64,000 nt of DNA from an uncultured Planctomycetia bacterium. GTDB taxonomy: Bacteria; Omnitrophota; Gorgyraeia; 2-02-FULL-51-18. This document shows positions 810 to 14,744 of this stretch, one piece after another. Every line of letters starts with the position of its first letter. Position 1 is the first letter of the stretch. The position numbers and the translations under genes are program-made. The stretch spans positions 3,194 to 67,193 of the forward strand of contig CAZTBX010000099.1 of the NCBI GenBank assembly GCA_964612035.1. Direction: 5' to 3'. The notes under the pieces were generated by a model. The model searched no databases. It was not told the origin of the DNA and worked only from the letters and a program-made list of their open reading frames with translations.

Positions 810-2399
810 GTGATACGCCGCCTGAGGGATATCTCCCTTATCCTTTTTTCGGCGGCGCTTCTCGTGCTGCCTTACCATTTTCAATCCCTGGGCGTCCTGG
901 CGTTCGTCGGGTTCATCCCTTATTTTTTCTGCCTCCGTCACCAAACGCCTGGCGGTGCCTTCAAATATTCTTTCCTGCTGGGCTTCCTTTTTTTCGCCCT
1001 TCTCGGTTTCTGGCTCACGAACGTGAATGTCATCGGCTTCGTGCTGCTGTCGGCGTACCTGGCGTTGTTCTTCGCGTTTTTCGGATTTTACGCGGTGTCT
1101 TTCCTCAAAACCGAGACCGGTGGCGCGCGCGCGGCGCTGTACACGGCCGCTATCTGGACGGCGCTCGAGTTCGTTCGCGGCTGGATGATCAGCGGTTTCC
1201 CGTGGGCGCTTCTAGGCTACAGCCAGTGGAAGAATCTCGTTATCATCCAAATAGCCGATATCGTGGGACCTTACGGTGTTTCTTTTTTTGTGATGGCCGT
1301 GAATGTGGCGCTGTTCGAATTGATACGGACGGCGCTCGGTCCCAGGGCCGGCGCGATGGAGCCCGCAACACGGCTCAAAGTGCTGCGCGGCACGGCGCTG
1401 TTCCTTTTTGGGCTCTCGGCCTCGGTGCTCGGCTATGGCGCCTGGTCGCTATCCTCGCGGGACGCGCTTTCCCGCCCCGCCATGCCCAAAGCCGTTCTGC
1501 GCGTGTCCGTGGTGCAGGGCAACATCCCGCAGGAACAGAAGTGGAACGCCAAGATCAAAGAGATCATCTTCGAAAAATACAAACGGCTCACGCTGATGGC
1601 CGCGGGCGAGCGGCCGGACCTCATCGTGTGGCCAGAGACCTCTTTTCCGGGATATCTCGAGGACGAACCCATCCTGGCGGCAAAATTGCGCAACATGGTG
1701 CGGCAGGGGCGCACGGCGGTGCTCGTGGGCGCGCCGTCTATGGGAGACCTCGAAACAGGCGGTCTCAAATTTTTCAACAGCGCCATTCTCTACAACAAGA
1801 ACGGCGAGGAGGAAAAAAGGTACAGCAAGGTGCATCTGGTGCCTTTCGGCGAATACATCCCGTTCGAACCCCTTCTGGGGTTTCTCCGCCATTTTTTCCC
1901 CATCGGGCATTTCAACGCGGGAGAGGACAAAACCGTTTTCAAATTGAGGGGCGAGTCGCCGGGCAGAGTGTCGGCCGCGCGTTTTGGCGTGCTCATCTGC
2001 TATGAGGACATTTTCCCCGGACTCGTGCGCGCTCTCTGTCTGAACGGCGCGGATTTCCTCGTCAATATCACCAATGACGCCTGGTTCGGCAAGACCTCCG
2101 CACCTTATCAGCACGCGCAGGCGTCGGTGTTCCGCGCCGTGGAAAATCGCGTGCCCGTGGTTCGCTCGACAAACACGGGCCTATCCTGCTTCATCTCCGC
2201 CGAAGGCCGCATACTCTCCAGCGTCAGCGAAAAAGGGGAGGAGATCATGGTGGCCGGCTACAAAACCCAGGATCTCGTCCTGCGCCGCGTCCGCACTTTT
2301 TACACCCGCTTCGGGGATATTTTCATGCTCCTCGTCGCAGCCCTCCTCGTCCTCTCCTACAAAGAAAAGTCCGCTCGGGAACGATATACCCAGTTTTAA
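810..2399 (+). CDS. lnt: Apolipoprotein N-acyltransferase
   Basis: 529 aa with a multi-TM N-terminus and a C-terminal CN-hydrolase domain (motifs VVQGNIPQ, LIVWPE, FGVLICYE). Sits directly after secA. Confidence 0.85.
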   Translation: MIRRLRDISLILFSAALLVLPYHFQSLGVLAFVGFIPYFFCLRHQTPGGAFKYSFLLGFLFFALLGFWLTNVNVIGFVLLSAYLALFFAFFGFYAVSFLKTETGGARAALYTAAIWTALEFVRGWMISGFPWALLGYSQWKNLVIIQIADIVGPYGVSFFVMAVNVALFELIRTALGPRAGAMEPATRLKVLRGTALFLFGLSASVLGYGAWSLSSRDALSRPAMPKAVLRVSVVQGNIPQEQKWNAKIKEIIFEKYKRLTLMAAGERPDLIVWPETSFPGYLEDEPILAAKLRNMVRQGRTAVLVGAPSMGDLETGGLKFFNSAILYNKNGEEEKRYSKVHLVPFGEYIPFEPLLGFLRHFFPIGHFNAGEDKTVFKLRGESPGRVSAARFGVLICYEDIFPGLVRALCLNGADFLVNITNDAWFGKTSAPYQHAQASVFRAVENRVPVVRSTNTGLSCFISAEGRILSSVSEKGEEIMVAGYKTQDLVLRRVRTFYTRFGDIFMLLVAALLVLSYKEKSARERYTQF

Positions 2400-2436
2400 C
2401 CCAGCCTTGATTGGGGCCGGTAGGGCCTGTTCGCTA

Positions 2437-2499
2437 TCCGCCTCCAAAAAGATTTTTTGCACGGAAATGGCACCCTGTGTCGTCCTGTTAGGTGGGAGG
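2437..2499. repeat. Left terminal inverted repeat of the accessory island (core ~56 bp at 2444-2499)
   Basis: tccgcctCCAAAAAGATTTTTTGCACGGAAATGGCACCCTGTGTCGTCCTGTTAGGTGGGAGG is the reverse complement of 4675-4731 with about 7 mismatches in 56. Confidence 0.8.
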
Positions 2500-2529
2500 C
2501 AAGCCATGCAGGAAGGCGTCACAAGGCTA

Positions 2530-2566
2530 TTGAAATATGTATAATTATATGTATACTTATATGTAT
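2530..2566 (+). promoter_or_regulatory. Sigma70-like promoter for brnTA with overlapping ATATGTAT direct repeats (candidate operator)
   Basis: -35 TTGAAA at 2530-2535, a 16 nt spacer, and -10 TATACT at 2552-2557. ATATGTAT(A) recurs at 2535-2543, 2547-2555 and 2559-2566 with ~12 bp periodicity. Confidence 0.5.
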
Positions 2567-2580
2567 CGGGCGAGGCCCAC

Positions 2581-2859
2581 ATGGACGTAGAATATGGGGG
2601 TTTCGTCTGGGACGATAGAAAAGAAGCCGAGAATATCCTCAAGCATGATGTTGATTTTAAGTCCGCATGCAGGGCGTTTCTCGATCCGGATAGAAAGGTA
2701 TTTAGAGATTCAAAACACAGCCGCTATGAGACGAGAAAGTTTTGCATCGGAAAAGTGGACAACCAGATCATGACGGTCCGATTTATGGTGAGAGAGCATA
2801 AGATCCGTATCATCGGCGCCGGTTATTGGAGACAGGGGAGGGCCTACTACAATGAATAA
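2581..2859 (+). CDS. brnT: BrnT-family (DUF497) type II toxin
   Basis: 92 aa. The layout FVWDDRKEAENILKHDVDFKSACRAFLDP...IRIIGAGYW matches BrnT/DUF497. Its stop overlaps the brnA start. Confidence 0.75.
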   Translation: MDVEYGGFVWDDRKEAENILKHDVDFKSACRAFLDPDRKVFRDSKHSRYETRKFCIGKVDNQIMTVRFMVREHKIRIIGAGYWRQGRAYYNE

Positions 2860-3091
2860 AAAAGTTCATGACCCAAATATGCCTGTCGGCAAATTGACAA
2901 GGGTCGTCGATGACCTGCCGCCGCCAAGCGAGCTCGCAAAACCCTTGCAAGGTGTGCGCATCACCATCATTGTCAGCAAGTCCAGCGTGGAATACTTCAA
3001 AACGAACGCCCGCAAATATCACACGAAGTATCAACGCATGATGCGCGAGGTGCTGGACAGCTATGTCTCCCGCCAGGCAGTCGCGCACTAA
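2852..3091 (+). CDS. brnA: BrnA-family antitoxin (RHH/CopG-like)
   Basis: 79 aa. The C-terminal motif VRITIIVSKSSVEYFKTNARKYHTKYQRMMREVLDSYV matches the BrnA pattern (V.L.L..DV.EWFK...GYQTRIN..LR.YM). It overlaps brnT by 8 nt. Confidence 0.7.
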   Translation: MNKKVHDPNMPVGKLTRVVDDLPPPSELAKPLQGVRITIIVSKSSVEYFKTNARKYHTKYQRMMREVLDSYVSRQAVAH

Positions 3092-3181
3092 TAAACAGCC
3101 GGAGGTCCCGTTCGCCGTCACCCGTTCGCTAGCTTAGTCTAATGCCTCCCCACCGACTGCGTCCGGTATGCGCCCCTAATT

Positions 3182-3240
3182 TCCGCCTTATTTTAAAATA
3201 ATCTGCACGGAAAATGCCTGGTCCGTCGTCTTGTATAGCA
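3182..3240. repeat. Degenerate internal third copy of the island terminal repeat, in the same orientation as the left copy
   Basis: tccgccttattttaaaataatcTGCACGGAAAATGCCTGGTCCGTCGTCTTGTATAG aligns with 2437-2499. Shared blocks are tccgcct, TGCACGGAAA(A)TG and GTCGTC(C/T)TGT. Confidence 0.55.
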
Positions 3241-3261
3241 GAAACCGTAAAGTGAGAGGTC

Positions 3262-3290
3262 TTGAAAAAACAACTTATAGGTTGTATACT
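3262..3290 (+). promoter_or_regulatory. Sigma70-like promoter for the XRE regulator module
   Basis: -35 TTGAAA at 3262-3267, a 17 nt spacer, and -10 TATACT at 3285-3290. The hexamers and spacing match the brnTA promoter. Confidence 0.5.
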
Positions 3291-3301
3291 TTAGGAGCGG
3301 T

Positions 3302-3388
3302 ATGTATTCGGTCAGGTTCTTTAAAGAAGAGATCGCCACCGCTTTGAAGAGAAAACGGATATTTGAGGGGAGAAGTATCGATGAATAA
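3302..3388 (+). other. 28-codon upstream ORF (MYSVRFFKEEIATALKRKRIFEGRSIDE), possibly a decayed toxin remnant or a leader peptide
   Basis: ATG at 3302 lies downstream of the promoter. The TAA stop at 3386-3388 overlaps the ATG of the XRE gene at 3381. It sits where a HigB/RelE-like toxin usually precedes this antitoxin type. Confidence 0.25.
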
Positions 3389-3710
3389 ACACTTGGGTTC
3401 GGATCTCAAAGAGACCTATAAGAAATTTGCTAAGGCAAGCCCTAAAAATGCACTCGAAGCCCAAATTCTGACCGGTAAACTCGAAATGGCGAATTTACTG
3501 ATCTCTCAAAGGGAAGATCTCGGTCTCAGCCAGAAAAAATTGGCTGAAAAACTGGGTGTTAAGCAGCAGCTCATCAGCAAAATAGAAAGCGGCTCTAACA
3601 ATATTACACTCGATACGCTGATCCGAGTATTGACCGTTTTGGGGGTCGCTTTGAAGGTCGAGAGAGTTAAATTAGAGAGAGCTCAAAAGGTATTACAATT
3701 TGTAACATGA
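3381..3710 (+). CDS. XRE-family helix-turn-helix protein resembling HigA-type type II antitoxins; orphan, with no intact toxin
   Basis: HTH core LSQKKLAEKLGVKQQLISKIESGSNNITLDTLIRVLTVLG. The RBS gaggggag lies 8 nt before the ATG at 3381. The ORF track starts at 3363 using TTG. Confidence 0.7.
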   Translation: MNKHLGSDLKETYKKFAKASPKNALEAQILTGKLEMANLLISQREDLGLSQKKLAEKLGVKQQLISKIESGSNNITLDTLIRVLTVLGVALKVERVKLERAQKVLQFVT

Positions 3711-3728
3711 ATTGACCGTCCTCCGCCC

Positions 3729-3831
3729 ATAGAATGGTACCGTAGAATGGTACCGGGTACGGAGGGGACAGCTACCAGAGTGTAACGTGTCCCTTTGGTA
3801 AGCGGTACCGTTCTACGTTCTACGTTCTATG
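3729..3831. repeat. Iteron-like array of the GTAGAAYGGTACC motif plus three tandem GTTCTAC heptamers
   Basis: ATAGAATGGTACC at 3729-3741 and GTAGAATGGTACC at 3742-3754 lie in direct orientation. GGTACCGTTCTAC at 3804-3816 is the inverted form. GTTCTAC repeats at 3810-3816 and 3817-3823, followed by gttctat at 3824-3830. Confidence 0.7.
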
Positions 3832-4126
3832 ATCGACGCTCGCCACACGCCGGCTCTCCATTGATTGACTCGTTTTTGGATTAGAGTTAACCTCTTTCTT
3901 TAGGATGTTGTCCGATATATGTCATGTAAGCAAATAGCCTCGGAAAAATTAAGTTATGATTAGCGACGCTTTGTCTCTGATTGATTTTCTCAAAAAACAC
4001 TTGATGGAATACTCAGTTAAAAGTGCATTGTTTAACTCTGACGGTATCAGGATTGAAGGAGACAGTTTTATTGAAATAGATAAAATCCCAGTCCAGTGTA
4101 GAACGGTACCGCTTACCAAAGGGACA
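3788..4126. repeat. Perfect 29 bp inverted repeat pair (3788-3816 and 4098-4126) enclosing ~280 bp of AT-rich DNA
   Basis: TGTCCCTTTGGTAAGCGGTACCGTTCTAC at 3788-3816 is the exact reverse complement of GTAGAACGGTACCGCTTACCAAAGGGACA at 4098-4126. Confidence 0.85.
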
Positions 4127-4135
4127 GGTTGTTAG
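3956..4135 (+). CDS. Hypothetical 59 aa ORF (MISDALSLIDFLKKHLMEYSVKSALFNSDGIRIEGDSFIEIDKIPVQCRTVPLTKGTGC)
   Basis: Open frame from ATG 3956 to TAG 4133-4135. It is just under the 60 aa ORF-track threshold, has no clear RBS, runs through the right 29 bp IR, and overlaps the ORF6N stop by 4 nt. Confidence 0.2.
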   Translation: MISDALSLIDFLKKHLMEYSVKSALFNSDGIRIEGDSFIEIDKIPVQCRTVPLTKGTGC

Positions 4136-4668
4136 TATTTGACATGAAAACCGACCGGTTTTTTCGGCGTCGATTTTGGTGATTCGAGCAATTCCTTGAG
4201 AGCCTCAAAAACGACTTTGAATTGCTTATCGTGTTTTTCGTATTTCCTCTCCAGTTCCTCGATCTTCTGACGGACAAGCTCATTGGTAGCGACCATTTCG
4301 CGGAGTTTGATGAAAGCCCGCATGATCAGGATATTGGCCTGCACTGCCCGGGGACTGTTGAGTATCCCGGAAAGCATGGCTACTCCTTCCTGGGTGAAAG
4401 CGTAAGGTAGGTAACGCCGCCCTCCACGGCCTTTGTTTGAGGTTCCAAATTGGAACCTCAAAGATTCAGCCTCATCAGCCGTTAAACGAAACATAAAGTC
4501 TTCTGGAAATCGGCTTATGTTTCGCTGAACAGCTTTATTTAGATTTTTAGTTAGGACGCCATAGAGTTCCGCAAGCTCACGGTCCAACATGACCTTTTTA
4601 CTCCTAATAAAATAGATCCTCCGCTCGACTTGCTCGTGCGAAAGCATGATATTCCCGTGTTTTGTCAT
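4132..4668 (-). CDS. ORF6N/KilA-N domain DNA-binding protein with a C-terminal coiled coil
   Basis: 178 aa. The core VMLDRELAELYGVLTKNLNKAVQRNISRFPEDFMFRLT...GRGGRRYLPYAFTQEGVAMLSGILNS is typical ORF6N. An AGGAGG RBS 7 nt upstream lies inside the right terminal repeat. This is the only minus-strand gene in the window. Confidence 0.75.
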   Translation of the reverse strand: MTKHGNIMLSHEQVERRIYFIRSKKVMLDRELAELYGVLTKNLNKAVQRNISRFPEDFMFRLTADEAESLRFQFGTSNKGRGGRRYLPYAFTQEGVAMLSGILNSPRAVQANILIMRAFIKLREMVATNELVRQKIEELERKYEKHDKQFKVVFEALKELLESPKSTPKKPVGFHVKY

Positions 4669-4674
4669 GACACC

Positions 4675-4731
4675 CCTCCTTACCTAACAGGACGACGGAG
4701 GGGGTCATTTCCGTTCAAAAAATCTTTTTGG
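4675..4731. repeat. Right terminal inverted repeat of the accessory island
   Basis: CCTCCTTACCTAACAGGACGACGGAGGGGGTCATTTCCGTTCAAAAAATCTTTTTGG is the reverse complement of 2444-2499 at ~87% identity. It contains a CCCCTCC(17 nt)GGAGGGG hairpin and supplies the ORF6N RBS. Confidence 0.8.
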
Positions 4732-4776
4732 CCCGCTCGCCCCACAACGCTCGCCACCCGCCAGCCCCACAGCGGT

Positions 4777-4805
4777 TTGACAGCTCAAGCCCTAGTCGCT
4801 ATAAT
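4777..4805 (+). promoter_or_regulatory. Sigma70 consensus promoter upstream of lysS
   Basis: -35 TTGACA at 4777-4782, a 17 nt spacer, and -10 TATAAT at 4800-4805. Confidence 0.6.
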
Positions 4806-4852
4806 AATTTCCATAAATTTAAGTAAGCAAAGAAGTTGCGAAAGGAACGGGC

Positions 4853-6304
4853 TTGAAAGAAGAAAACGAGCTTGTTAAAGAACGCTTTAAAAAGTTAGAG
4901 CAGATAAAGGCCATGAATATAGACCCTTTCGGGGGAAAATTCCCGAAGCAGGGGCCTATTTCTGAGCTTCCCAAGCTTGTGGAAGGCAGTCGCGTGGCCT
5001 CAGCCGGCCGCCTCTCGGCCATGCGTGTCATGGGCAAGTCCGTGTTCTGCGACCTGAAAGATGAAAGCGGCCGCATCCAGCTTTATATCAAGCACGAGAA
5101 TCTCGGCGACGCGCAATTCTTGCTTTTTGAGCGCCTCGACATCGGTGACATCATCGGCGTCGAGGGCGAGCTTTTCAAGACCAAGACCGGCGAGATCTCC
5201 ATCCGCGTCGAAAAACTTTCACTGCTTGCAAAAAGCCTGAGGCCTTTGCCGGAAAAATGGCATGGCCTGAAAGACGTCGAGGCGCGCTACCGCCAGAGAT
5301 ACCTCGACCTCATTTCCAACGACGAGACAAAGGACATTTTCCGCAAGCGTTCGATGATCATCCGTGAGATACGCCGCGTGCTCGATGACAAAGGCTATCT
5401 CGAAGTCGAGACGCCCATGATGCATCCCATCCCCGGCGGGGCGGCGGGGAAACCGTTCAAAACGCATCACGAGGCGCTGGACCTGGACCTTTTTCTACGC
5501 ATCGCGCCGGAACTTTACCTGAAAAAGCTTTTGGTCGGCGGTTTCGACAAGGTGTATGAGATCAACAAGAGTTTCCGCAACGAGGGCATCTCCACGCGGC
5601 ACAATCCCGAATTCACCATGCTCGAGGTGTACACGGCGTATCAGGACTGCGAGGACGTCATGCAGCTCACCGAGGACATCGTGAAGCATGCCGCGCAAAG
5701 CGTGTTTGGCACGCTGACGCTTGAGCAGGGCGGCCGCGTGCTCGACCTCTCCAAATGGGAACGCGTGTCTTTCGCGGCGCTCATGAAAGATTCTTTCGGC
5801 ATCCTGCCCGATGACGATATCGCCTCGTGGCCGGACAAGCTGCGCAAAAAGGGCGTGAAGATAGAAAAAAAGGACCTGTCGAGGACTCAGCTCATCAACA
5901 TCATCGCGGACCTGCTCGAGCCCGGCAAAACGGACGCTCACCAGACGCTGAAGCCCATGTTCGTCACGGATTATTTTTCAGAACTTTCGCCGCTGGCGCG
6001 CCGCAACAAGAAGCACCCCGAGCTCAGCGAGCGTTTCGAACTTTATTTTGGCGGCATCGAGATCGCCAACGGCTATTCCGAGCAGAACGATCCCATCGAG
6101 CAGCGTGAACGCCTCGAAGAGGAGATGAGGGAAAAAGGAAAAGGCGCGGGAGAGCTGGACGAAGATTTTCTGACGGCACTCGAGCACGGCATGCCTCCGG
6201 CCGGCGGCCTCGGCATCGGCATCGACCGTCTCGTGATGCTGCTCACCAATCAGCCCTCCATCCGCGAGGTGATCTTATTTCCCCAAATGAAAAAAGAGAG
6301 TTAA
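4853..6304 (+). CDS. lysS: Lysine--tRNA ligase (class II)
   Basis: 483 aa with an N-terminal anticodon-binding OB fold and class II motifs (FRNEGIS, PPAGGLGIGIDRLVM). Confidence 0.9.
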   Translation: MKEENELVKERFKKLEQIKAMNIDPFGGKFPKQGPISELPKLVEGSRVASAGRLSAMRVMGKSVFCDLKDESGRIQLYIKHENLGDAQFLLFERLDIGDIIGVEGELFKTKTGEISIRVEKLSLLAKSLRPLPEKWHGLKDVEARYRQRYLDLISNDETKDIFRKRSMIIREIRRVLDDKGYLEVETPMMHPIPGGAAGKPFKTHHEALDLDLFLRIAPELYLKKLLVGGFDKVYEINKSFRNEGISTRHNPEFTMLEVYTAYQDCEDVMQLTEDIVKHAAQSVFGTLTLEQGGRVLDLSKWERVSFAALMKDSFGILPDDDIASWPDKLRKKGVKIEKKDLSRTQLINIIADLLEPGKTDAHQTLKPMFVTDYFSELSPLARRNKKHPELSERFELYFGGIEIANGYSEQNDPIEQRERLEEEMREKGKGAGELDEDFLTALEHGMPPAGGLGIGIDRLVMLLTNQPSIREVILFPQMKKES

Positions 6305-6399: not shown

Positions 6400-7573
6400 A
6401 TGAACTTTCACTGGTTCATTGCCAAACGCTATCTCTGGTCCAAGAGGCGCCATCCGTTCGTCGGAGTGGTGAGCACGATCTCGGCGCTGGGCATTTGCGT
6501 CGGCGTCGCCGCGCTCATCGTGGTGCTCGCCGTGATGAACGGGTTTGACGAAGACCTGAAAGAAAGGGTGATCGGCCTCCGTTCGCATCTCATCGTCGAA
6601 AAGGACGGCGCCTTCACTGACTCCGAGGCCGTCATGCAGCGCGTTCGCGCCGTGAAAGGCGTGGCGGGAACTTCCCCGTACGTGGAGGGCCAGGCGTTGG
6701 TGCAGGTCGGTGAGTGGGGCAGTGGCGTTCTCGTGCGCGGCATAGACCCGCGCCGGGAAAAGAAAGTGTCCAAATTTTTCCAGTATCTGACCGAGGGCAC
6801 GCTCAGCGATTCGCCGAGCGGCGTCGTCGTCGGCTCCGAACTTGCCAAGCGCGCCCATATCAGCCGCGGCTCCAACCTTCTCATCGCCACGCAGAACACC
6901 GAGAAACCGATGCGTCTCACCGTTGAGGGGATATTTTCTTCGGGGATGTACGAATACGACGCGAACCTCGTTTTTCTGAATTTGAAGAATGCGCAGGCGC
7001 TTTTCGGCCTCGACAATGGTGTCAGCGGCGTCTCGGTGTACCTGAAAAAAGCCGAGCTTGCCGATCAGGCGAAAAGATCCATGCGAAACATGCTGCCGTC
7101 GGCGTTCTTCATCCGCACCTGGATGGACATGAACCGCACGCTTTTTTCGGCGCTGAAACTGGAGAAGATCGTGATGTTCCTGATCCTGACGCTGATCATT
7201 TTCGTGGCGTGCCTCAACATCGCGGGCAGTCTCACCATCCTCGTGATGGACAAGACCAAGGACATCGGCGTATTGAAAGCGCTGGGGGCGGCACCGTATT
7301 CGCTGGTGAAGATATTTGCGCTCGACGGCCTCATCCTCGGTCTCGTGGGCTCCGGCGCGGGTTTTCTGATCGGGACCGGGCTGTGCGCGCTGCTCAGCCA
7401 GCATTCTTTCGTCGAGCTTCCTAAAGAAATTTACTACATCGACCGTCTGCCGGTGCAGGTGAACGCCAAGGATACGGCGATAGTGCTGATCGTGGCCATT
7501 TTTCTGAGTTTTTTGTCGGCTTTATACCCGGCCACGCGCGCGGGGCGGCTGGATCCCGTAAAGGCTCTCCGCT

Positions 7574-13307: not shown

Positions 13308-14744
13308 TTGCGCCGTCCAGAGTTTAAAGGAAACAAGCGCCTTGCGTGGTGCCTTCTTTTTGTCGCCATCGGAGCGGCCGGCGTTTACCTCGCGCAGCTG
13401 AAAAAAGACGCGTTGGTACGCGAGGCGGCCGCTTTTTTACAAAAGATGCTGCTGCGGGAAACGGAGCTTGATTTTCGCATCGGCCGCATGAGGGGCAAAC
13501 TTTCGGGCGGCATTCGTTTCGAGGACGTGCGCATCGAGGATCCCGCGCTCCCCGAGGGGGACCGAATGCTTTTCAGCGCCAAAGAGATCCGTTTTCGTTA
13601 CAATTTTCTCGATTTTATCTCGAAGCAGTTCGGTTCCAAGTTGGAGGTGACGGTCGTAGAGCCCGTGATCGTGTGGCGGCCGTCGGCGAGGCTAAGCCGC
13701 GAACCGCTGCCGATACTCTCGTGGATGAAGCAGTGGGCGCTGTCGTCGAAAGGGCGTTTTTCGATACGGCTCCTGAAGACCAAGTTTTATATGGGCAGCG
13801 TGCCGTTGAAGATCGAGGAATTTTTTCTCGACGCCGGACCCGACAGTTTTCGCGCCGAGATACCGATACGGCACCTGGAGATCGCCGGGTCCGATATTTC
13901 GTCGGTGATCAAGGTGAGTGGGCGTATCGAGCCGGGGCTCATCCATGAGGATGACGCACTCGTCGGCGAGATCCGTACCGAGGGGAGCGTGGTCAACTGG
14001 AACCCGCTGCCGGCGGAGTCGGCGTTTGATTTCCGATGCTCGCGTCGTGGGCTGCACATATCGGCGTCGGATTTTCTAGGAGGCATCGAAGTGACGGGTG
14101 CCGTGGATTTTCAGAACGGCGGCGAGGCCGAGTGGACGCTACACGCCGAAGATTACGCGCTGTCGAACCTGGACGCGTTCCTCCAGTCGGCGCAAAAGAT
14201 ATCGATCTCCGGGCGCATGAGTTTGGACCTCGGTTTCAGCGGCGACCTGTTCGCGCCGCAGGTGAATGGCGACGTGCGCGTGGAATCGCCGTGGCTCGGC
14301 AAGGAACTGAAGGCCATGGACATTCACGTGGATGGCGTGTATCCGACGGTGCGCCTCACGGGGTCGAGAGTACTTCTGCAGGACGGCTCGTCGATGCGCC
14401 TGGCCGACGAGACGCTGGAGGCGCAGGATCTTTTCAATGAAAAGACTTATCAGGCGCTGGTCTCCGGGGCCCAACAGGACAACGTGGTGTGGGGAGACTG
14501 GGAGTTCAGGCATCCGCGGGACGAGAACGACAAGCCGGAATTTCTCATACAACGGTCGTTCGGTGACCGCGCGAGGCTGCATTTCAGGAAATTCAACGTT
14601 GAGGACGAGGACCTGATCGAGTCGCGCCAGACGCAGCCCATGGAACTCGGGCTTGAGCTGAAGCTCAGACCCAAAGATTCGGTGAAGCTCGAGTGGCGCG
14701 AAGAAGAGGGGTTCGTGGGGGTCGAGCGAAAGATGAAATTTTGA
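13308..14744 (+). CDS. Hypothetical membrane-anchored protein, possibly an AsmA/TamB-like envelope protein
   Basis: 478 aa with an N-terminal TM helix followed by a long beta-rich region. It lies immediately upstream of mlaEFD. Its function is inferred from context only. Confidence 0.35.
   Translation: MRRPEFKGNKRLAWCLLFVAIGAAGVYLAQLKKDALVREAAAFLQKMLLRETELDFRIGRMRGKLSGGIRFEDVRIEDPALPEGDRMLFSAKEIRFRYNFLDFISKQFGSKLEVTVVEPVIVWRPSARLSREPLPILSWMKQWALSSKGRFSIRLLKTKFYMGSVPLKIEEFFLDAGPDSFRAEIPIRHLEIAGSDISSVIKVSGRIEPGLIHEDDALVGEIRTEGSVVNWNPLPAESAFDFRCSRRGLHISASDFLGGIEVTGAVDFQNGGEAEWTLHAEDYALSNLDAFLQSAQKISISGRMSLDLGFSGDLFAPQVNGDVRVESPWLGKELKAMDIHVDGVYPTVRLTGSRVLLQDGSSMRLADETLEAQDLFNEKTYQALVSGAQQDNVVWGDWEFRHPRDENDKPEFLIQRSFGDRARLHFRKFNVEDEDLIESRQTQPMELGLELKLRPKDSVKLEWREEEGFVGVERKMKF

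What the first reader, a model, noticed from the sequence alone, without database searches (positions are those of the whole stretch)
3182..3290. A third degenerate repeat copy splits the island into two modules with identical promoter architecture
At 3182-3240 a diverged copy of the terminal repeat (shared blocks tccgcct, TGCACGGAAA(A)TG, GTCGTCYTGT) lies in the same orientation as the left copy. About 30 bp after the left copy and about 20 bp after the internal copy sits a TTGAAA-N16/17-TATACT promoter (2530-2557 and 3262-3290). This repeat-promoter-gene layout is modular and suggests sequential cassette capture or duplication. The right copy, which is inverted, instead supplies the AGGAGG RBS for ORF6N.
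Basis: seen in the sequence. Interest (0 to 1): 0.5.

Follow-up and report, generated by a model that had tools for sequence, protein, structure and literature searches.

The report
Shared leader heads three accessory-gene cassettes
The "third repeat" is real: all three copies belong to a widespread, so far undescribed ~50-base leader sequence that precedes small mobile and defence-type genes in Omnitrophota-like bacteria, and here it heads three unrelated gene cassettes inserted between two housekeeping genes.

Summary
Copies lie at 2444-2500 (+), 3190-3248 (+) and 4675-4731 (-), and TTGAAA-N16/17-TATACT promoters lie at 2530-2557 and 3262-3290. The internal copy is not a decayed terminal repeat. 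It is 60-65% identical to L and R but up to 75% identical to copies from other metagenomes.

All three belong to one leader family: TT..ACGRAAA-N11-GTCGTCYTGTWTRG, then usually AGGAGG and ATG. Elsewhere this leader precedes ORF6N genes (PADLOC candidate PDC-S05), RAYT-like Y1 transposase genes, and toxin-antitoxin operons that carry their own sigma-70 promoters. A profile built only from regions upstream of ORF6N genes in another genome recovers exactly the three window copies (E 5e-7 to 1e-3; next hit 0.18).

Every copy points toward its downstream gene. A relative has lnt and lysS only 96 nt apart, so 2400-4776 is an insertion. It holds three leader-headed cassettes (brnTA, a decayed Gp49/HigB-type pair, ORF6N) plus REP-like hairpins.

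Best reading: a portable promoter-proximal 5' leader that can hide the ribosome-binding site. It is intact before ORF6N, and it sits upstream of TA operons that took over the other two slots. "Duplication of modules" and "terminal repeats of one element" are not. No Rfam family matches.

The parts
2444..2500 (+). Leader copy L. Core ACGGAAA-N11-GTCGTCCTGTTAGG lies at 2461-2492, followed by a relic SD GGGAGG (2494-2499).
   Evidence: 50 nt, 90% inverted match to R. nhmmer E 1.3e-3 with the ORF6N-upstream profile and 6.3e-8 with the 9-copy external profile.
2506..2544 (+). Relic 12-codon ORF (MQEGVTRLLKYV*). It starts at the position where family members have the start codon. It probably marks the displaced original gene.
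   Evidence: Sequence read. The SD-N6-ATG geometry matches the SD-bearing family members (alignment). L004 shows the analogous case of a Y1 gene truncated after 9 codons.
2530..2557 (+). Sigma-70-like promoter TTGAAA-16-TATACT of brnTA, embedded in the ATATGTATA-type palindromic repeats (about 2533-2566) that are the presumed operator.
   Evidence: Promoter scan. Repeats D19 and I19. A near-identical promoter/operator lies upstream of the BrnT homologue in L024, and a related one in L007.
2581..3091 (+). brnT (2581-2859) and brnA (2852-3091), a type II toxin-antitoxin operon (cassette 1).
   Evidence: Pfam BrnT_toxin E 4e-19. BrnA_antitoxin E 2e-3, below the curated cut-off. The gene order matches the brnTA locus in L007.
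3190..3248 (+). Leader copy I (the finding). Core ACGGAAA-N11-GTCGTCTTGTATAG lies at 3207-3238. No SD follows it.
   Evidence: nhmmer E 2.5e-4 (independent profile) and 2.5e-9. It is 72-75% identical to external Y1-type leaders against 60-65% to L and R.
3262..3290 (+). Sigma-70-like promoter TTGAAA-17-TATACT of cassette 2. Its spacer holds the palindrome ACAAC-N6-GTTGT, the presumed operator of the HTH antitoxin.
   Evidence: Promoter scan. Palindrome read from the sequence and paired in the fold.
3302..3710 (+). Cassette 2: a 28-codon ORF (3302-3388), probably an internally deleted Gp49/HigB-type toxin, plus an XRE/HTH antitoxin (3381-3710).
   Evidence: Pfam HTH_3 E 7e-16. NCBIfam antitoxin families Y4mF, HipB and HigA, all below their cut-offs. 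33% identity to the HTH partner of a Gp49 toxin in L004. The toxin-relic reading is inference.
3729..3830 (.). REPIN-like pair of inverted REP-type hairpin repeats downstream of cassette 2.
   Evidence: Inverted repeat I4 and direct repeat D17. The 16-mer CCAAAGGGACACGTTA is identical to the REP flanking Y1 genes in L003 and L006.
4098..4130 (+). REP-type repeat abutting the stop codon of ORF6N. It is 97% complementary to 3784-3816.
   Evidence: Inverted repeat I2. It has the same position relative to the stop codon as the REP after the Y1 gene in L003. A Logan contig of the same genome breaks here.
4132..4668 (-). ORF6N-domain gene (178 aa), cassette 3.
   Evidence: Pfam ORF6N E 2e-32. PADLOC PDC-S05 E 2e-58 over the full length. 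More than 8000 homologues.
4675..4731 (-). Leader copy R, the intact form. The core lies at 4683-4714. The anti-SD-like spacer UGACCCCCUCC is followed by the SD AGGAGG (4675-4680) and the ATG at 4668.
   Evidence: nhmmer E 4.8e-7. The predicted spacer-SD duplex is -20.1 kcal/mol. It is closest to the leaders of ORF6N genes in L007.
4777..4805 (+). lysS promoter TTGACA-17-TATAAT. It marks the right limit of the inserted island.
   Evidence: Promoter scan, 12 of 12. The same promoter lies directly after lnt in the relative L019.

Best explanation
The three copies are members of a dispersed, portable leader of about 50-60 nt, comprising a promoter-proximal region and a 5' UTR. In Omnitrophota-like and some other uncultivated bacteria this leader is the normal upstream region of small selfish or defence-type genes: ORF6N/PDC-S05 genes and RAYT-like Y1 transposase genes.

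Its canonical form is an AT-rich stretch, then ACGRAAA, an 11-nt C/U-rich spacer, GUCGUCUUGUAUAG, the SD and AUG. In the RNA the spacer can pair with the SD, and it can alternatively be held in a short 5' hairpin (ACGGA/UCCGU). This would gate translation.

In this window the island 2400-4776 is an insertion between lnt and lysS built from three leader-headed cassettes:
- Copy R is the intact form and drives or gates ORF6N.
- Copies L and I sit upstream of slots now occupied by TA operons with their own autoregulated sigma-70 promoters: brnTA, and a decayed Gp49/HigB-type pair.
- Either those operons displaced the original gene, or they recombined in at the shared leader.

Shown: family membership, orientation, insertion status, the mosaic boundary at the leader's 3' end, and the recurrence of TA operons behind the leader.
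Inferred: transcription of the leader, RNA-level SD occlusion, and gene replacement as the origin of L and I.
For: 1. Family and contexts.
- The pattern ACGGAAA-N11-GTCGTCYTGTWTAG hit 1 GTDB MAG and 5 metagenome contigs.
- In L002, L003/L006 and L005 the leader runs into SD+ATG of a Y1_Tnp protein (Pfam E 4e-11). The best NCBIfam match is REP-associated tyrosine transposase.
- ORF6N homologues found by protein search carry the same leader. L007 has three ORF6N genes plus one brnTA operon behind it, and L009-L011 carry it too.

2. Independent profile test.

3. Position and orientation. All 12 non-redundant copies are co-oriented with the next gene and end about 14-90 nt before its start. In SD-bearing copies the SD follows the core within 1-2 nt.

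4. RNA-level signals.
- Cognate spacer-SD duplexes are stronger than non-cognate ones: -9.9 against -7.8 kcal/mol, permutation p 0.008, with window R at -20.1.
- The 5' hairpin is 90% paired, with one G-C to A-U exchange and frequent G-U pairs.
- In Y1 leaders GUCGUCUUG pairs with codons 2-4 (L003, z -4.7).

5. Mosaicism. L007 units 2 and 3 are about 93% identical for about 145 nt up to ...TGTATAG, and then become unrelated. Leader type does not track ORF6N phylogeny.

6. Displacement relics.
- L004 keeps 9 Y1 codons before a Gp49/HTH TA pair.
- Window L keeps SD+ATG and 12 codons.
- L007 unit 2 keeps a degenerate SD and an ATG-TAA.

7. Insertion. The relative L019-L021 has lnt-lysS 96 nt apart with the same lysS promoter. 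The island has lower GC than its flanks.
Against: - No transcription data exist, and no convincing promoter is seen upstream of copy R. The -10-like hexamers 4-8 nt before ACG occur in 10 of 12 copies but lie in AT-rich DNA, and L and R lack them.
- Fold z-scores of single leaders are mostly unremarkable.
- The single covarying pair comes from one genome, and a +3 register pairs almost as well.
- One SD-bearing copy (L007 unit 1) has a purine-rich spacer with no anti-SD.
- The invariant 14-nt block GUCGUCUUGUAUAG is unpaired in both proposed conformations, and this model does not explain it.
- The core is fully retained in TA-linked copies that have lost the SD. That hints at a function other than SD occlusion, although those copies were ascertained through the core.
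- External pattern hits are biased toward intact cores.
Confidence: 0.5

Rival explanations
1. The leader is a DNA-level recombination or transposition site that marks the 5' boundary of a mobile cassette (leader ... gene(s) ... REP-type hairpin). The cassette would be moved or exchanged in trans, for example by the RAYT-like Y1 transposase that carries the same leader, or the leader would act as a landing pad for TA cassettes. On this reading the island is an array of three such cassettes.
For: - Sharp similarity breakpoint exactly at the end of ...TGTATAG between L007 units.
- The core is retained in TA-linked copies that have lost the SD.
- Five of 12 copies are followed within about 15-50 nt by unrelated TA operons: BrnTA twice, Gp49/HTH, RHH/PemK and HTH.
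- Y1 genes with this leader are flanked by inverted REP hairpins.
- The window ORF6N and HTH genes are followed by the same REP type, which shares a 16-mer with those hairpins.
- ORF6N occurs as a solitary insertion between housekeeping genes.
Against: - The junction between leader and incoming cassette varies (0 to about 35 nt after the core) rather than sitting at one nucleotide.
- There is no Y1 gene in the 64-kb window.
- BrnT homologues chosen by protein similarity lack a canonical leader (L022, L024).
- No target-site duplication flanks the island or the copies.
- The strict co-orientation with genes and the SD geometry are what a cis-regulatory element would show.
Confidence: 0.22
2. 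The conserved blocks act in double-stranded DNA, either as an alternative-sigma (ECF-like) promoter or as the operator of a shared regulator such as the ORF6N DNA-binding protein itself. This would put ORF6N, Y1 and some TA operons under common transcriptional control.
For: - Two near-invariant blocks (ACGRAAA and GTCGTCYTGT) lie at a fixed 11-nt distance with a variable spacer, which is the typical anatomy of a promoter or operator.
- TGAAC ... CGTC resembles ECF promoters, which have AAC in the -35 element and CGTC in the -10 element (PMC5758882).
- ACGGA-N10-TCCGT is a palindrome in several copies.
- ORF6N is a KilA-N-type DNA-binding domain with a coiled-coil tail (established knowledge of the domain).
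Against: - The -35 'AAC' is not conserved: it is GAC in the Y1 copies and CAC in window L and I.
- The invariant CGTC lies 18 nt from it, outside the 14-17 nt range quoted for ECF promoters.
- The half-site 'pairs' include frequent G-T, which only makes sense in RNA.
- The spacer composition tracks the SD.
- No sigma-70 geometry fits.
Confidence: 0.15
3. L and R are the terminal inverted repeats of a single non-autonomous transposon (a mobile insertion cassette or MITE-like element) that carried the whole 2.3-kb island. The internal copy would be a decayed end of a nested or older element.
For: A 50-nt, 90% inverted repeat lies at the two ends of a low-GC insertion that is absent from a relative.
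Against: - There is no target-site duplication: the flanks are ...ATCCGCCT and CCCGCTCG....
- There is no transposase.
- The inner ends of the 'TIRs' are SD sequences at start-codon distance.
- The same sequence occurs singly and in direct orientation in front of genes in other genomes.
- The internal copy belongs to a different sub-lineage from L and R.
Confidence: 0.05

Closest known systems
Putative mobile promoters (Matus-Garcia, Nijveen and van Passel 2012, PMC3488235)
   Same: These are 50-100-nt upstream sequences with at least 80% identity in front of non-homologous genes, within and between genomes. Window L and R (50 nt, 90%, before brnT and ORF6N) fit that operational definition, and the family crosses genomes.
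   Different: That category is purely operational, with no function assigned. Here the element has a defined two-block core, an SD at a fixed distance, and a specific clientele (ORF6N/PDC-S05, RAYT-like Y1, TA operons).
IS200 tnpA left end and 5' UTR (own knowledge of the IS200/IS605 literature; not tested here)
   Same: A Y1-transposase gene is preceded by a conserved leader in which a stem-loop can sequester the ribosome-binding site. In Y1-linked copies here GUCGUCUUG pairs with codons 2-4, and the spacer pairs with the SD.
   Different: There is no sequence similarity and no Rfam match. The Y1 proteins here score as RAYT-like, not IS200. The same leader also serves non-transposase genes.
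REP/RAYT systems (REPINs)
   Same: Y1 genes carrying this leader are flanked by inverted REP-type hairpins. The window island contains a REPIN-like doublet and a third REP copy that share a 16-mer with those hairpins.
   Different: The finding is the leader, not the REP. There is no RAYT gene in the window. The Y1 proteins fall below the NCBIfam RAYT cut-off (51-57 bits against 80). REP/RAYT descriptions known to me do not include gene cassettes sharing the RAYT leader.
Integron gene cassettes and attC sites
   Same: A conserved element lies immediately 5' of each cassette's SD. TA cassettes bring their own promoters. There is a sharp similarity boundary at the element's end. L and R even contain GTTAGGT, which fits GTTRRRY.
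   Different: The element is not an imperfect palindrome with complementary R''/R' cores. Most members, including copy I, read GTATAG, not GTTRRRY. Orientations are mixed. No integrase gene was encountered, though none was specifically searched for. Junction positions vary.
Neisseria Correia elements and other promoter-bearing intergenic repeats (own knowledge)
   Same: These are short dispersed intergenic repeats that sit next to genes and can supply promoter or 5'-UTR sequence.
   Different: Correia elements have terminal inverted repeats and TA target duplications and insert in either orientation. This leader has neither TIRs nor duplications and is always co-oriented with the gene.

Membership tests
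Leader family defined here (ACGRAAA-N11-GTCGTCYTGTWTRG) | Significant match to a profile built from copies outside the window | tested here: met
   ORF6N-upstream profile from L007: R 4.8e-7, I 2.5e-4, L 1.3e-3, next hit 0.18. The 9-copy external profile gives 1e-9 to 6e-8, but that profile is partly circular.
Leader family defined here | Co-oriented with, and close to, the start of the downstream gene | tested here: met
   All three window copies and all nine external non-redundant copies meet this.
Putative mobile promoter (PMC3488235) | 50-100 nt, at least 80% identity, upstream of non-homologous genes | tested here: met
   L against R: 50 nt, 90%, before brnT and ORF6N. L001 against L007 unit 2: 88% over the 40-nt core, in different MAGs.
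Putative mobile promoter | Actual promoter activity | not testable with these tools
   Only weak -10-like hexamers lie upstream of the core. There is no sigma-70 match for copy R.
Any described RNA family (Rfam 15) | Match to a covariance model | tested here: not met
   No hit at gathering thresholds in the whole window. There is no leader hit even at E up to 10 in window 2350-4850 or in L007 4500-8300.
SD-sequestering 5' UTR (translational gate) | Anti-SD complementary to the copy's own SD, supported by co-variation | tested here: inconclusive
   Cognate duplexes beat non-cognate ones (p 0.008, 8 copies), driven largely by window R at -20.1 kcal/mol. One copy lacks an anti-SD. Single-sequence z-scores are weak.
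Transposon or mobile insertion cassette with terminal inverted repeats | Terminal inverted repeats | tested here: met
   2444-2493 and 4682-4731, 90%.
Transposon or mobile insertion cassette with terminal inverted repeats | Target-site duplication, and copies of the same element elsewhere | tested here: not met
   The flanks differ. The leader occurs singly or in direct orientation elsewhere. There is no other copy in the 64-kb window.
Integron cassette / attC | Imperfect palindrome with R'' RYYYAAC and R' GTTRRRY cores | tested here: not met
   Only a 5-bp stem is predicted. Copy I and most members read GTATAG.
Integron cassette / attC | Associated IntI integrase | not tested
   No integrase was encountered in the ORFs and called genes examined, but no specific search was made.
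REP/RAYT system | RAYT gene flanked by inverted REP hairpins | tested here: not met
   This is met in L003/L006. The window has REP-like repeats but no Y1 gene (tblastn). The Y1 proteins of the loci score 51-57 bits against a cut-off of 80 for NF047646.
ECF-sigma promoter | -35 AAC, -10 CGTC, spacer 14-17 nt (PMC5758882) | tested here: not met
   CGTC is invariant. AAC is present in only half of the copies, and the spacing to the invariant CGTC is 18 nt.
Type II TA system BrnT/BrnA (cassette 1) | BrnT_toxin and BrnA_antitoxin domains in an overlapping gene pair behind a palindromic promoter | tested here: met
   BrnT E 4e-19. BrnA E 2e-3, below the cut-off. The genes overlap by 8 nt.
PADLOC candidate defence gene PDC-S05 (cassette 3) | Full-length match to the PDC-S05 HMM | tested here: met
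   E 2e-58, residues 6-174 on profile positions 4-175 of 177. Defence activity itself was not tested.

The most novel reading that the evidence does not exclude
The leader, together with the REP-type hairpin after the stop codon, delimits a previously unrecognised kind of exchangeable gene cassette in Omnitrophota and neighbouring phyla. On this reading ORF6N/PDC-S05 genes, RAYT-like Y1 transposases and type II TA operons are interchangeable cargo behind one conserved 5' module. The cassettes would be moved or swapped by the Y1 enzyme, or by recombination at the leader. It would be a single-strand-transposase analogue of an integron platform.
Probability: 0.15. Interest if true: 0.75.

Novelty: new variant of a known kind. 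Interest (0 to 1): 0.45.

Why it matters
This turns an apparent local curiosity (three look-alike stretches in one islet) into a recognisable, searchable sequence family. The family links three classes of selfish or defence genes in poorly known, uncultivated phyla: ORF6N/PDC-S05, RAYT-like transposases and toxin-antitoxin operons.

If the leader is a translational gate, it is a new cis-regulatory RNA candidate that is absent from Rfam. If it is a recombination handle, it would explain how small defence and addiction genes are shuffled into housekeeping intergenic regions in streamlined genomes. It would also give RAYT-like enzymes a role beyond REP maintenance.

Practically, the motif TT..ACGRAAA-N11-GTCGTCYTGTWTRG can be used to annotate such islets and their gene starts in Omnitrophota MAGs.

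Tried and rejected
- Plain pairwise alignment of the internal copy against L and R with shuffles gave only marginal support (12 of 300). It was replaced by profile tests.
- My first spaced pattern used the wrong spacing and found nothing.
- Exact-protein look-ups of the window's ORF6N and BrnT found nothing on record.
- IMG/VR viral contigs contain no copy of the motif, so it is not a phage element in that collection.
- Rfam gave no match at gathering or permissive thresholds.
- A sigma-70 promoter inside the core was rejected. TATAGT as a -10 element would start transcripts inside or after the SD, and no -35 fits.
- Sigma-54 was rejected by eye because the GG/GC spacing is wrong.
- An ECF-type promoter is weak.
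- The attC reading was rejected for lack of palindromic cores.
- The idea that leader+brnTA is an obligatory unit was tested with BrnT homologues chosen by protein similarity. L022/L023 have no leader, and L024 has at most a doubtful remnant.
- The weak profile hit at 13577-13609 lies antisense in a coding region and is chance.
- More diverged ORF6N leaders (L008, L012, L013...GTAGTTCAGCCCAnCTGAACGAAAGA...CGTCTTTT...) look related by eye, but the profile does not detect them.
- ORF6N in L015-L017 has no leader at all.
Full report
**Setting.** The finding lies in a 2.4-kb stretch between lnt (810-2399, Pfam LNT_N and CN_hydrolase) and lysS (4853-6304).
- GC falls to 0.39-0.50 there, against 0.55-0.64 in the flanks.
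- LysS homologues show the organism is Omnitrophota-like.
- In a relative with 76% LysS identity (L019-L021) the gene order secA-lnt-lysS-lolCD is the same, but lnt and lysS are only 96 nt apart. The lysS promoter TTGACA-17-TATAAT follows directly after lnt.
- The window has the same perfect promoter at 4777-4805. So 2400-4776 is an insertion.

**Island content**.
- brnT and brnA occupy 2581-3091.
- A 28-codon ORF (3302-3388) overlaps an XRE/HTH antitoxin-type gene (3381-3710). That gene is 33% identical to the partner of a Gp49 toxin in L004, so this is probably a HigBA/Gp49-type pair whose toxin suffered an internal deletion (inference).
- On the minus strand lies a 178-aa ORF6N-domain gene (4132-4668). 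It matches the PADLOC candidate defence family PDC-S05 over its full length (E 2e-58).
- Between the last two lie REP-type hairpin repeats: a REPIN-like doublet at 3729-3830 and a third copy at 4098-4130.

**Checking the observation.**
- L (2444-2493) and R (4682-4731) are 90% identical over 50 nt in inverted orientation. The similarity continues through the SD (GGGAGG in L, AGGAGG in R).
- The internal copy is weak by pairwise criteria: 70% ungapped over 40 nt, and a local score reached by 12 of 300 shuffles.

**Evidence from outside the window.** A spaced pattern common to the three copies was scanned over the public collections. It returned one GTDB MAG contig (L001, Planctomycetia) and five metagenome contigs (L002-L006), where about one chance hit was expected from my own estimate.
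- In L002, L003/L006 and L005 the motif runs straight into AGGAGG and the ATG of a 195-aa Y1_Tnp protein. Its best NCBIfam match is REP-associated tyrosine transposase, below the cut-off.
- The gene in L003/L006 is flanked by perfect inverted REP hairpins ACCGGACCCCGTCCCAAAGGGACACGTTA.
- In L004 the Y1 gene is cut after nine codons and followed by a Gp49 toxin/HTH antitoxin pair.
- In L001 the motif is followed 13 nt later by TTGACA-17-TATACT and an RHH/PemK pair.

**ORF6N homologues.** Homologues of the window's ORF6N protein were fetched by protein similarity, independently of the pattern.
- In L007, three tandem ORF6N genes each have the same leader.
- A fourth leader on the other strand of L007 precedes a brnTA operon with the same kind of ATATGTATA palindromic promoter as the window's.
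- L009-L011 repeat the first L007 unit.
- More distant ORF6N genes (L008, L012, L013) have a recognisably related but diverged leader. L015-L017 have none.

**Significance of the internal copy.** An nhmmer profile made only from the 100 nt upstream of the three L007 ORF6N genes finds R, I and L as its top three hits in the 64-kb window (E 4.8e-7, 2.5e-4, 1.3e-3). The next hit (E 0.18) is antisense inside a coding region.
- A profile of nine external copies gives E 1e-9 to 6e-8. That profile is partly circular, because six of its copies were retrieved with a pattern derived from the window.
- Over the 40-nt core the internal copy is 60-65% identical to L and R but 72-75% identical to the Y1-linked external copies. 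L and R are each other's closest relatives at 85%.
- So the internal copy is a genuine family member of a different sub-lineage, not a decayed copy of the terminal pair.

**Anatomy of the family**. The leader reads, in order:
- an AT-rich stretch of about 30 nt;
- (T)T-N2-ACGRAAA;
- an 11-nt, mostly C/T-rich spacer;
- GTCGTCYTGTWTRG;
- in copies that serve ORF6N or Y1 genes, an SD 1-2 nt later and the ATG 6-9 nt after that.

All 12 non-redundant copies point toward the next gene.

**RNA-level signals.**
- The spacer is complementary to the copy's own SD. The mean duplex energy is -9.9 kcal/mol for cognate pairs against -7.8 for non-cognate pairs (permutation p 0.008). Window R is the extreme case at -20.1 kcal/mol, covering the SD up to the AUG.
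- A 5-bp hairpin ACGGA/UCCGU that overlaps the anti-SD is 90% paired. It shows one G-C to A-U exchange and many G-U pairs. However, the exchange comes from one genome, and a +3 register pairs almost as well.
- In Y1 copies GUCGUCUUG also pairs with codons 2-4 (L003, -28 kcal/mol, z -4.7).
- These features fit a transcribed leader that gates translation. They are suggestive, not conclusive.
- No Rfam family matches.

**Evidence that the leader is exchanged independently of the genes.**
- L007 units 2 and 3 are about 93% identical for about 145 nt, from a REP-like hairpin through the leader core. They become unrelated immediately after ...TGTATAG, although both are followed by ORF6N genes (about 50% protein identity).
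- Leader type does not follow ORF6N phylogeny. The window's closest ORF6N homologue (L008, 79%) has the diverged leader, while a 49% homologue (L007 unit 3) has the leader most like copy R.
- L001 (Planctomycetia MAG) and L007 unit 2 share 88% of the core.

**TA operons behind the leader.** Five of 12 copies (window L and I, L001, L004, L007-brnTA) are followed by unrelated TA operons. In window L and I, L001 and L007 a sigma-70-like promoter is detected by the scan. L004 has only a by-eye TTGACA-17-TAACCT that fails the scan.
- The operons begin 13 to about 50 nt after the core.
- Relics of the former SD, ATG or first codons remain in L004, window L and L001.
- The leader is not an obligatory part of brnTA cassettes. 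BrnT homologues chosen by protein similarity either follow uvrA directly (L022/L023) or have at most a doubtful remnant (L024). L024's promoter/operator is nevertheless almost identical to the window's.
- So the TTGAAA/TATACT promoters belong to the TA cassettes, and TA operons have repeatedly come to lie behind leaders.

**Interpretation.** The best-supported reading is a portable promoter-proximal 5' leader of ORF6N/PDC-S05 and RAYT-like genes.
- Copy R is the intact, working form.
- Copies L and I sit in front of TA operons that displaced or recombined into the original slots.
- The main rival is that the leader is itself a DNA recombination or transposition handle, delimiting mobile cassettes together with the REP hairpins.
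  - For it: the sharp mosaic boundary, retention of the core where the SD is lost, and the REP that abuts the ORF6N stop codon just as it abuts the Y1 stop codon in L003.
  - Against it: variable junctions, no Y1 gene in the window and no target duplications.
- A dsDNA promoter or operator reading is weaker. The ECF-like 'AAC' is not conserved, and the spacing to the invariant CGTC is 18 nt, against 14-17 for ECF promoters.
- The single-transposon reading of L and R is unlikely. There is no target duplication, the inner ends are SDs, and the same sequence occurs singly elsewhere.

**Comparison with known things.**
- L and R meet the operational definition of putative mobile promoters (PMC3488235).
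- The RBS-occluding leader of a Y1 transposase recalls the IS200 tnpA 5' UTR (own knowledge), but without sequence similarity.
- The surroundings are REP/RAYT-like.
- The cassette-like layout resembles integron arrays only superficially.
- I found no description of this leader in Rfam or in the paper library.
- I rate it a new variant of a known kind: a dispersed regulatory leader or mobile promoter. A minority possibility is that it marks a new cassette-exchange system.

**Limits.**
- Six external copies were ascertained through an intact core.
- No expression data exist for any copy.
- Only 64 kb of this genome could be searched.

Noticed in passing
window 3729-3830 and 4098-4130; L003 656-671; L006 109-124: REP-type repeats: a REPIN-like inverted doublet and a third copy that abuts the ORF6N stop codon. 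The 16-mer CCAAAGGGACACGTTA is identical to the hairpins flanking RAYT-like Y1 genes in L003 and L006. A Logan contig of the same genome (L018) breaks exactly at 4101, which suggests the repeat is multi-copy in the genome.
   Followed up: partly
window 4436-4462 (inside ORF6N); L007 about 5259-5286, 5593-5622, 6594-6620, 7357-7380: The ORF6N gene contains a perfect 13+13-nt palindrome TTTGAGGTTCCAA/TTGGAACCTCAAA that encodes the LRFQFGTS motif. The palindrome is identical in a 76%-identical homologue. Similar palindromes sit immediately after the stop codons of the three L007 ORF6N genes. They may be gene fragments or recombination scars.
   Followed up: no
window 3836-3854 and 4747-4765: A 19-nt direct repeat ACGCTCGCCAC(A/C)CGCC(G/A)GC (17 of 19) brackets the segment holding the REP, ORF6N and leader R. 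It could be an att-like duplication or just GC-rich low-complexity sequence. It was not tested against shuffles.
   Followed up: no
window 2426-2437 and 3121-3132: CCYGTTCGCTAK lies upstream of both plus-strand leaders. In copy I it is separated from TCCGCCT by an extra 47 nt or so.
   Followed up: no
window 3302-3388: The 28-codon ORF overlapping the HTH antitoxin gene looks like the N- and C-terminal ends of a Gp49/HigB-type toxin joined by an internal deletion. That would leave an orphan antitoxin.
   Followed up: partly
window 4132-4668 (-): The ORF6N protein is a full-length match to the PADLOC candidate single-gene defence family PDC-S05 (E 2e-58). It has more than 8000 homologues. It often occurs as a solitary insertion between housekeeping genes (L008, L013) or in tandem next to an R-M system (L007).
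   Followed up: partly
window 3956-4135 (+): A 59-codon ORF in AT-rich DNA runs into the REP copy at 4098-4130. It has no family match and is probably a truncated gene fragment.
   Followed up: no
L005 6237-9662: The contig with a leader-bearing Y1 gene also carries several TA-like gene pairs, judged from their translations only (RelE/ParE-, HigBA- and VapBC-like). None of them has the leader, so the leader is not a general feature of TA operons.
   Followed up: partly
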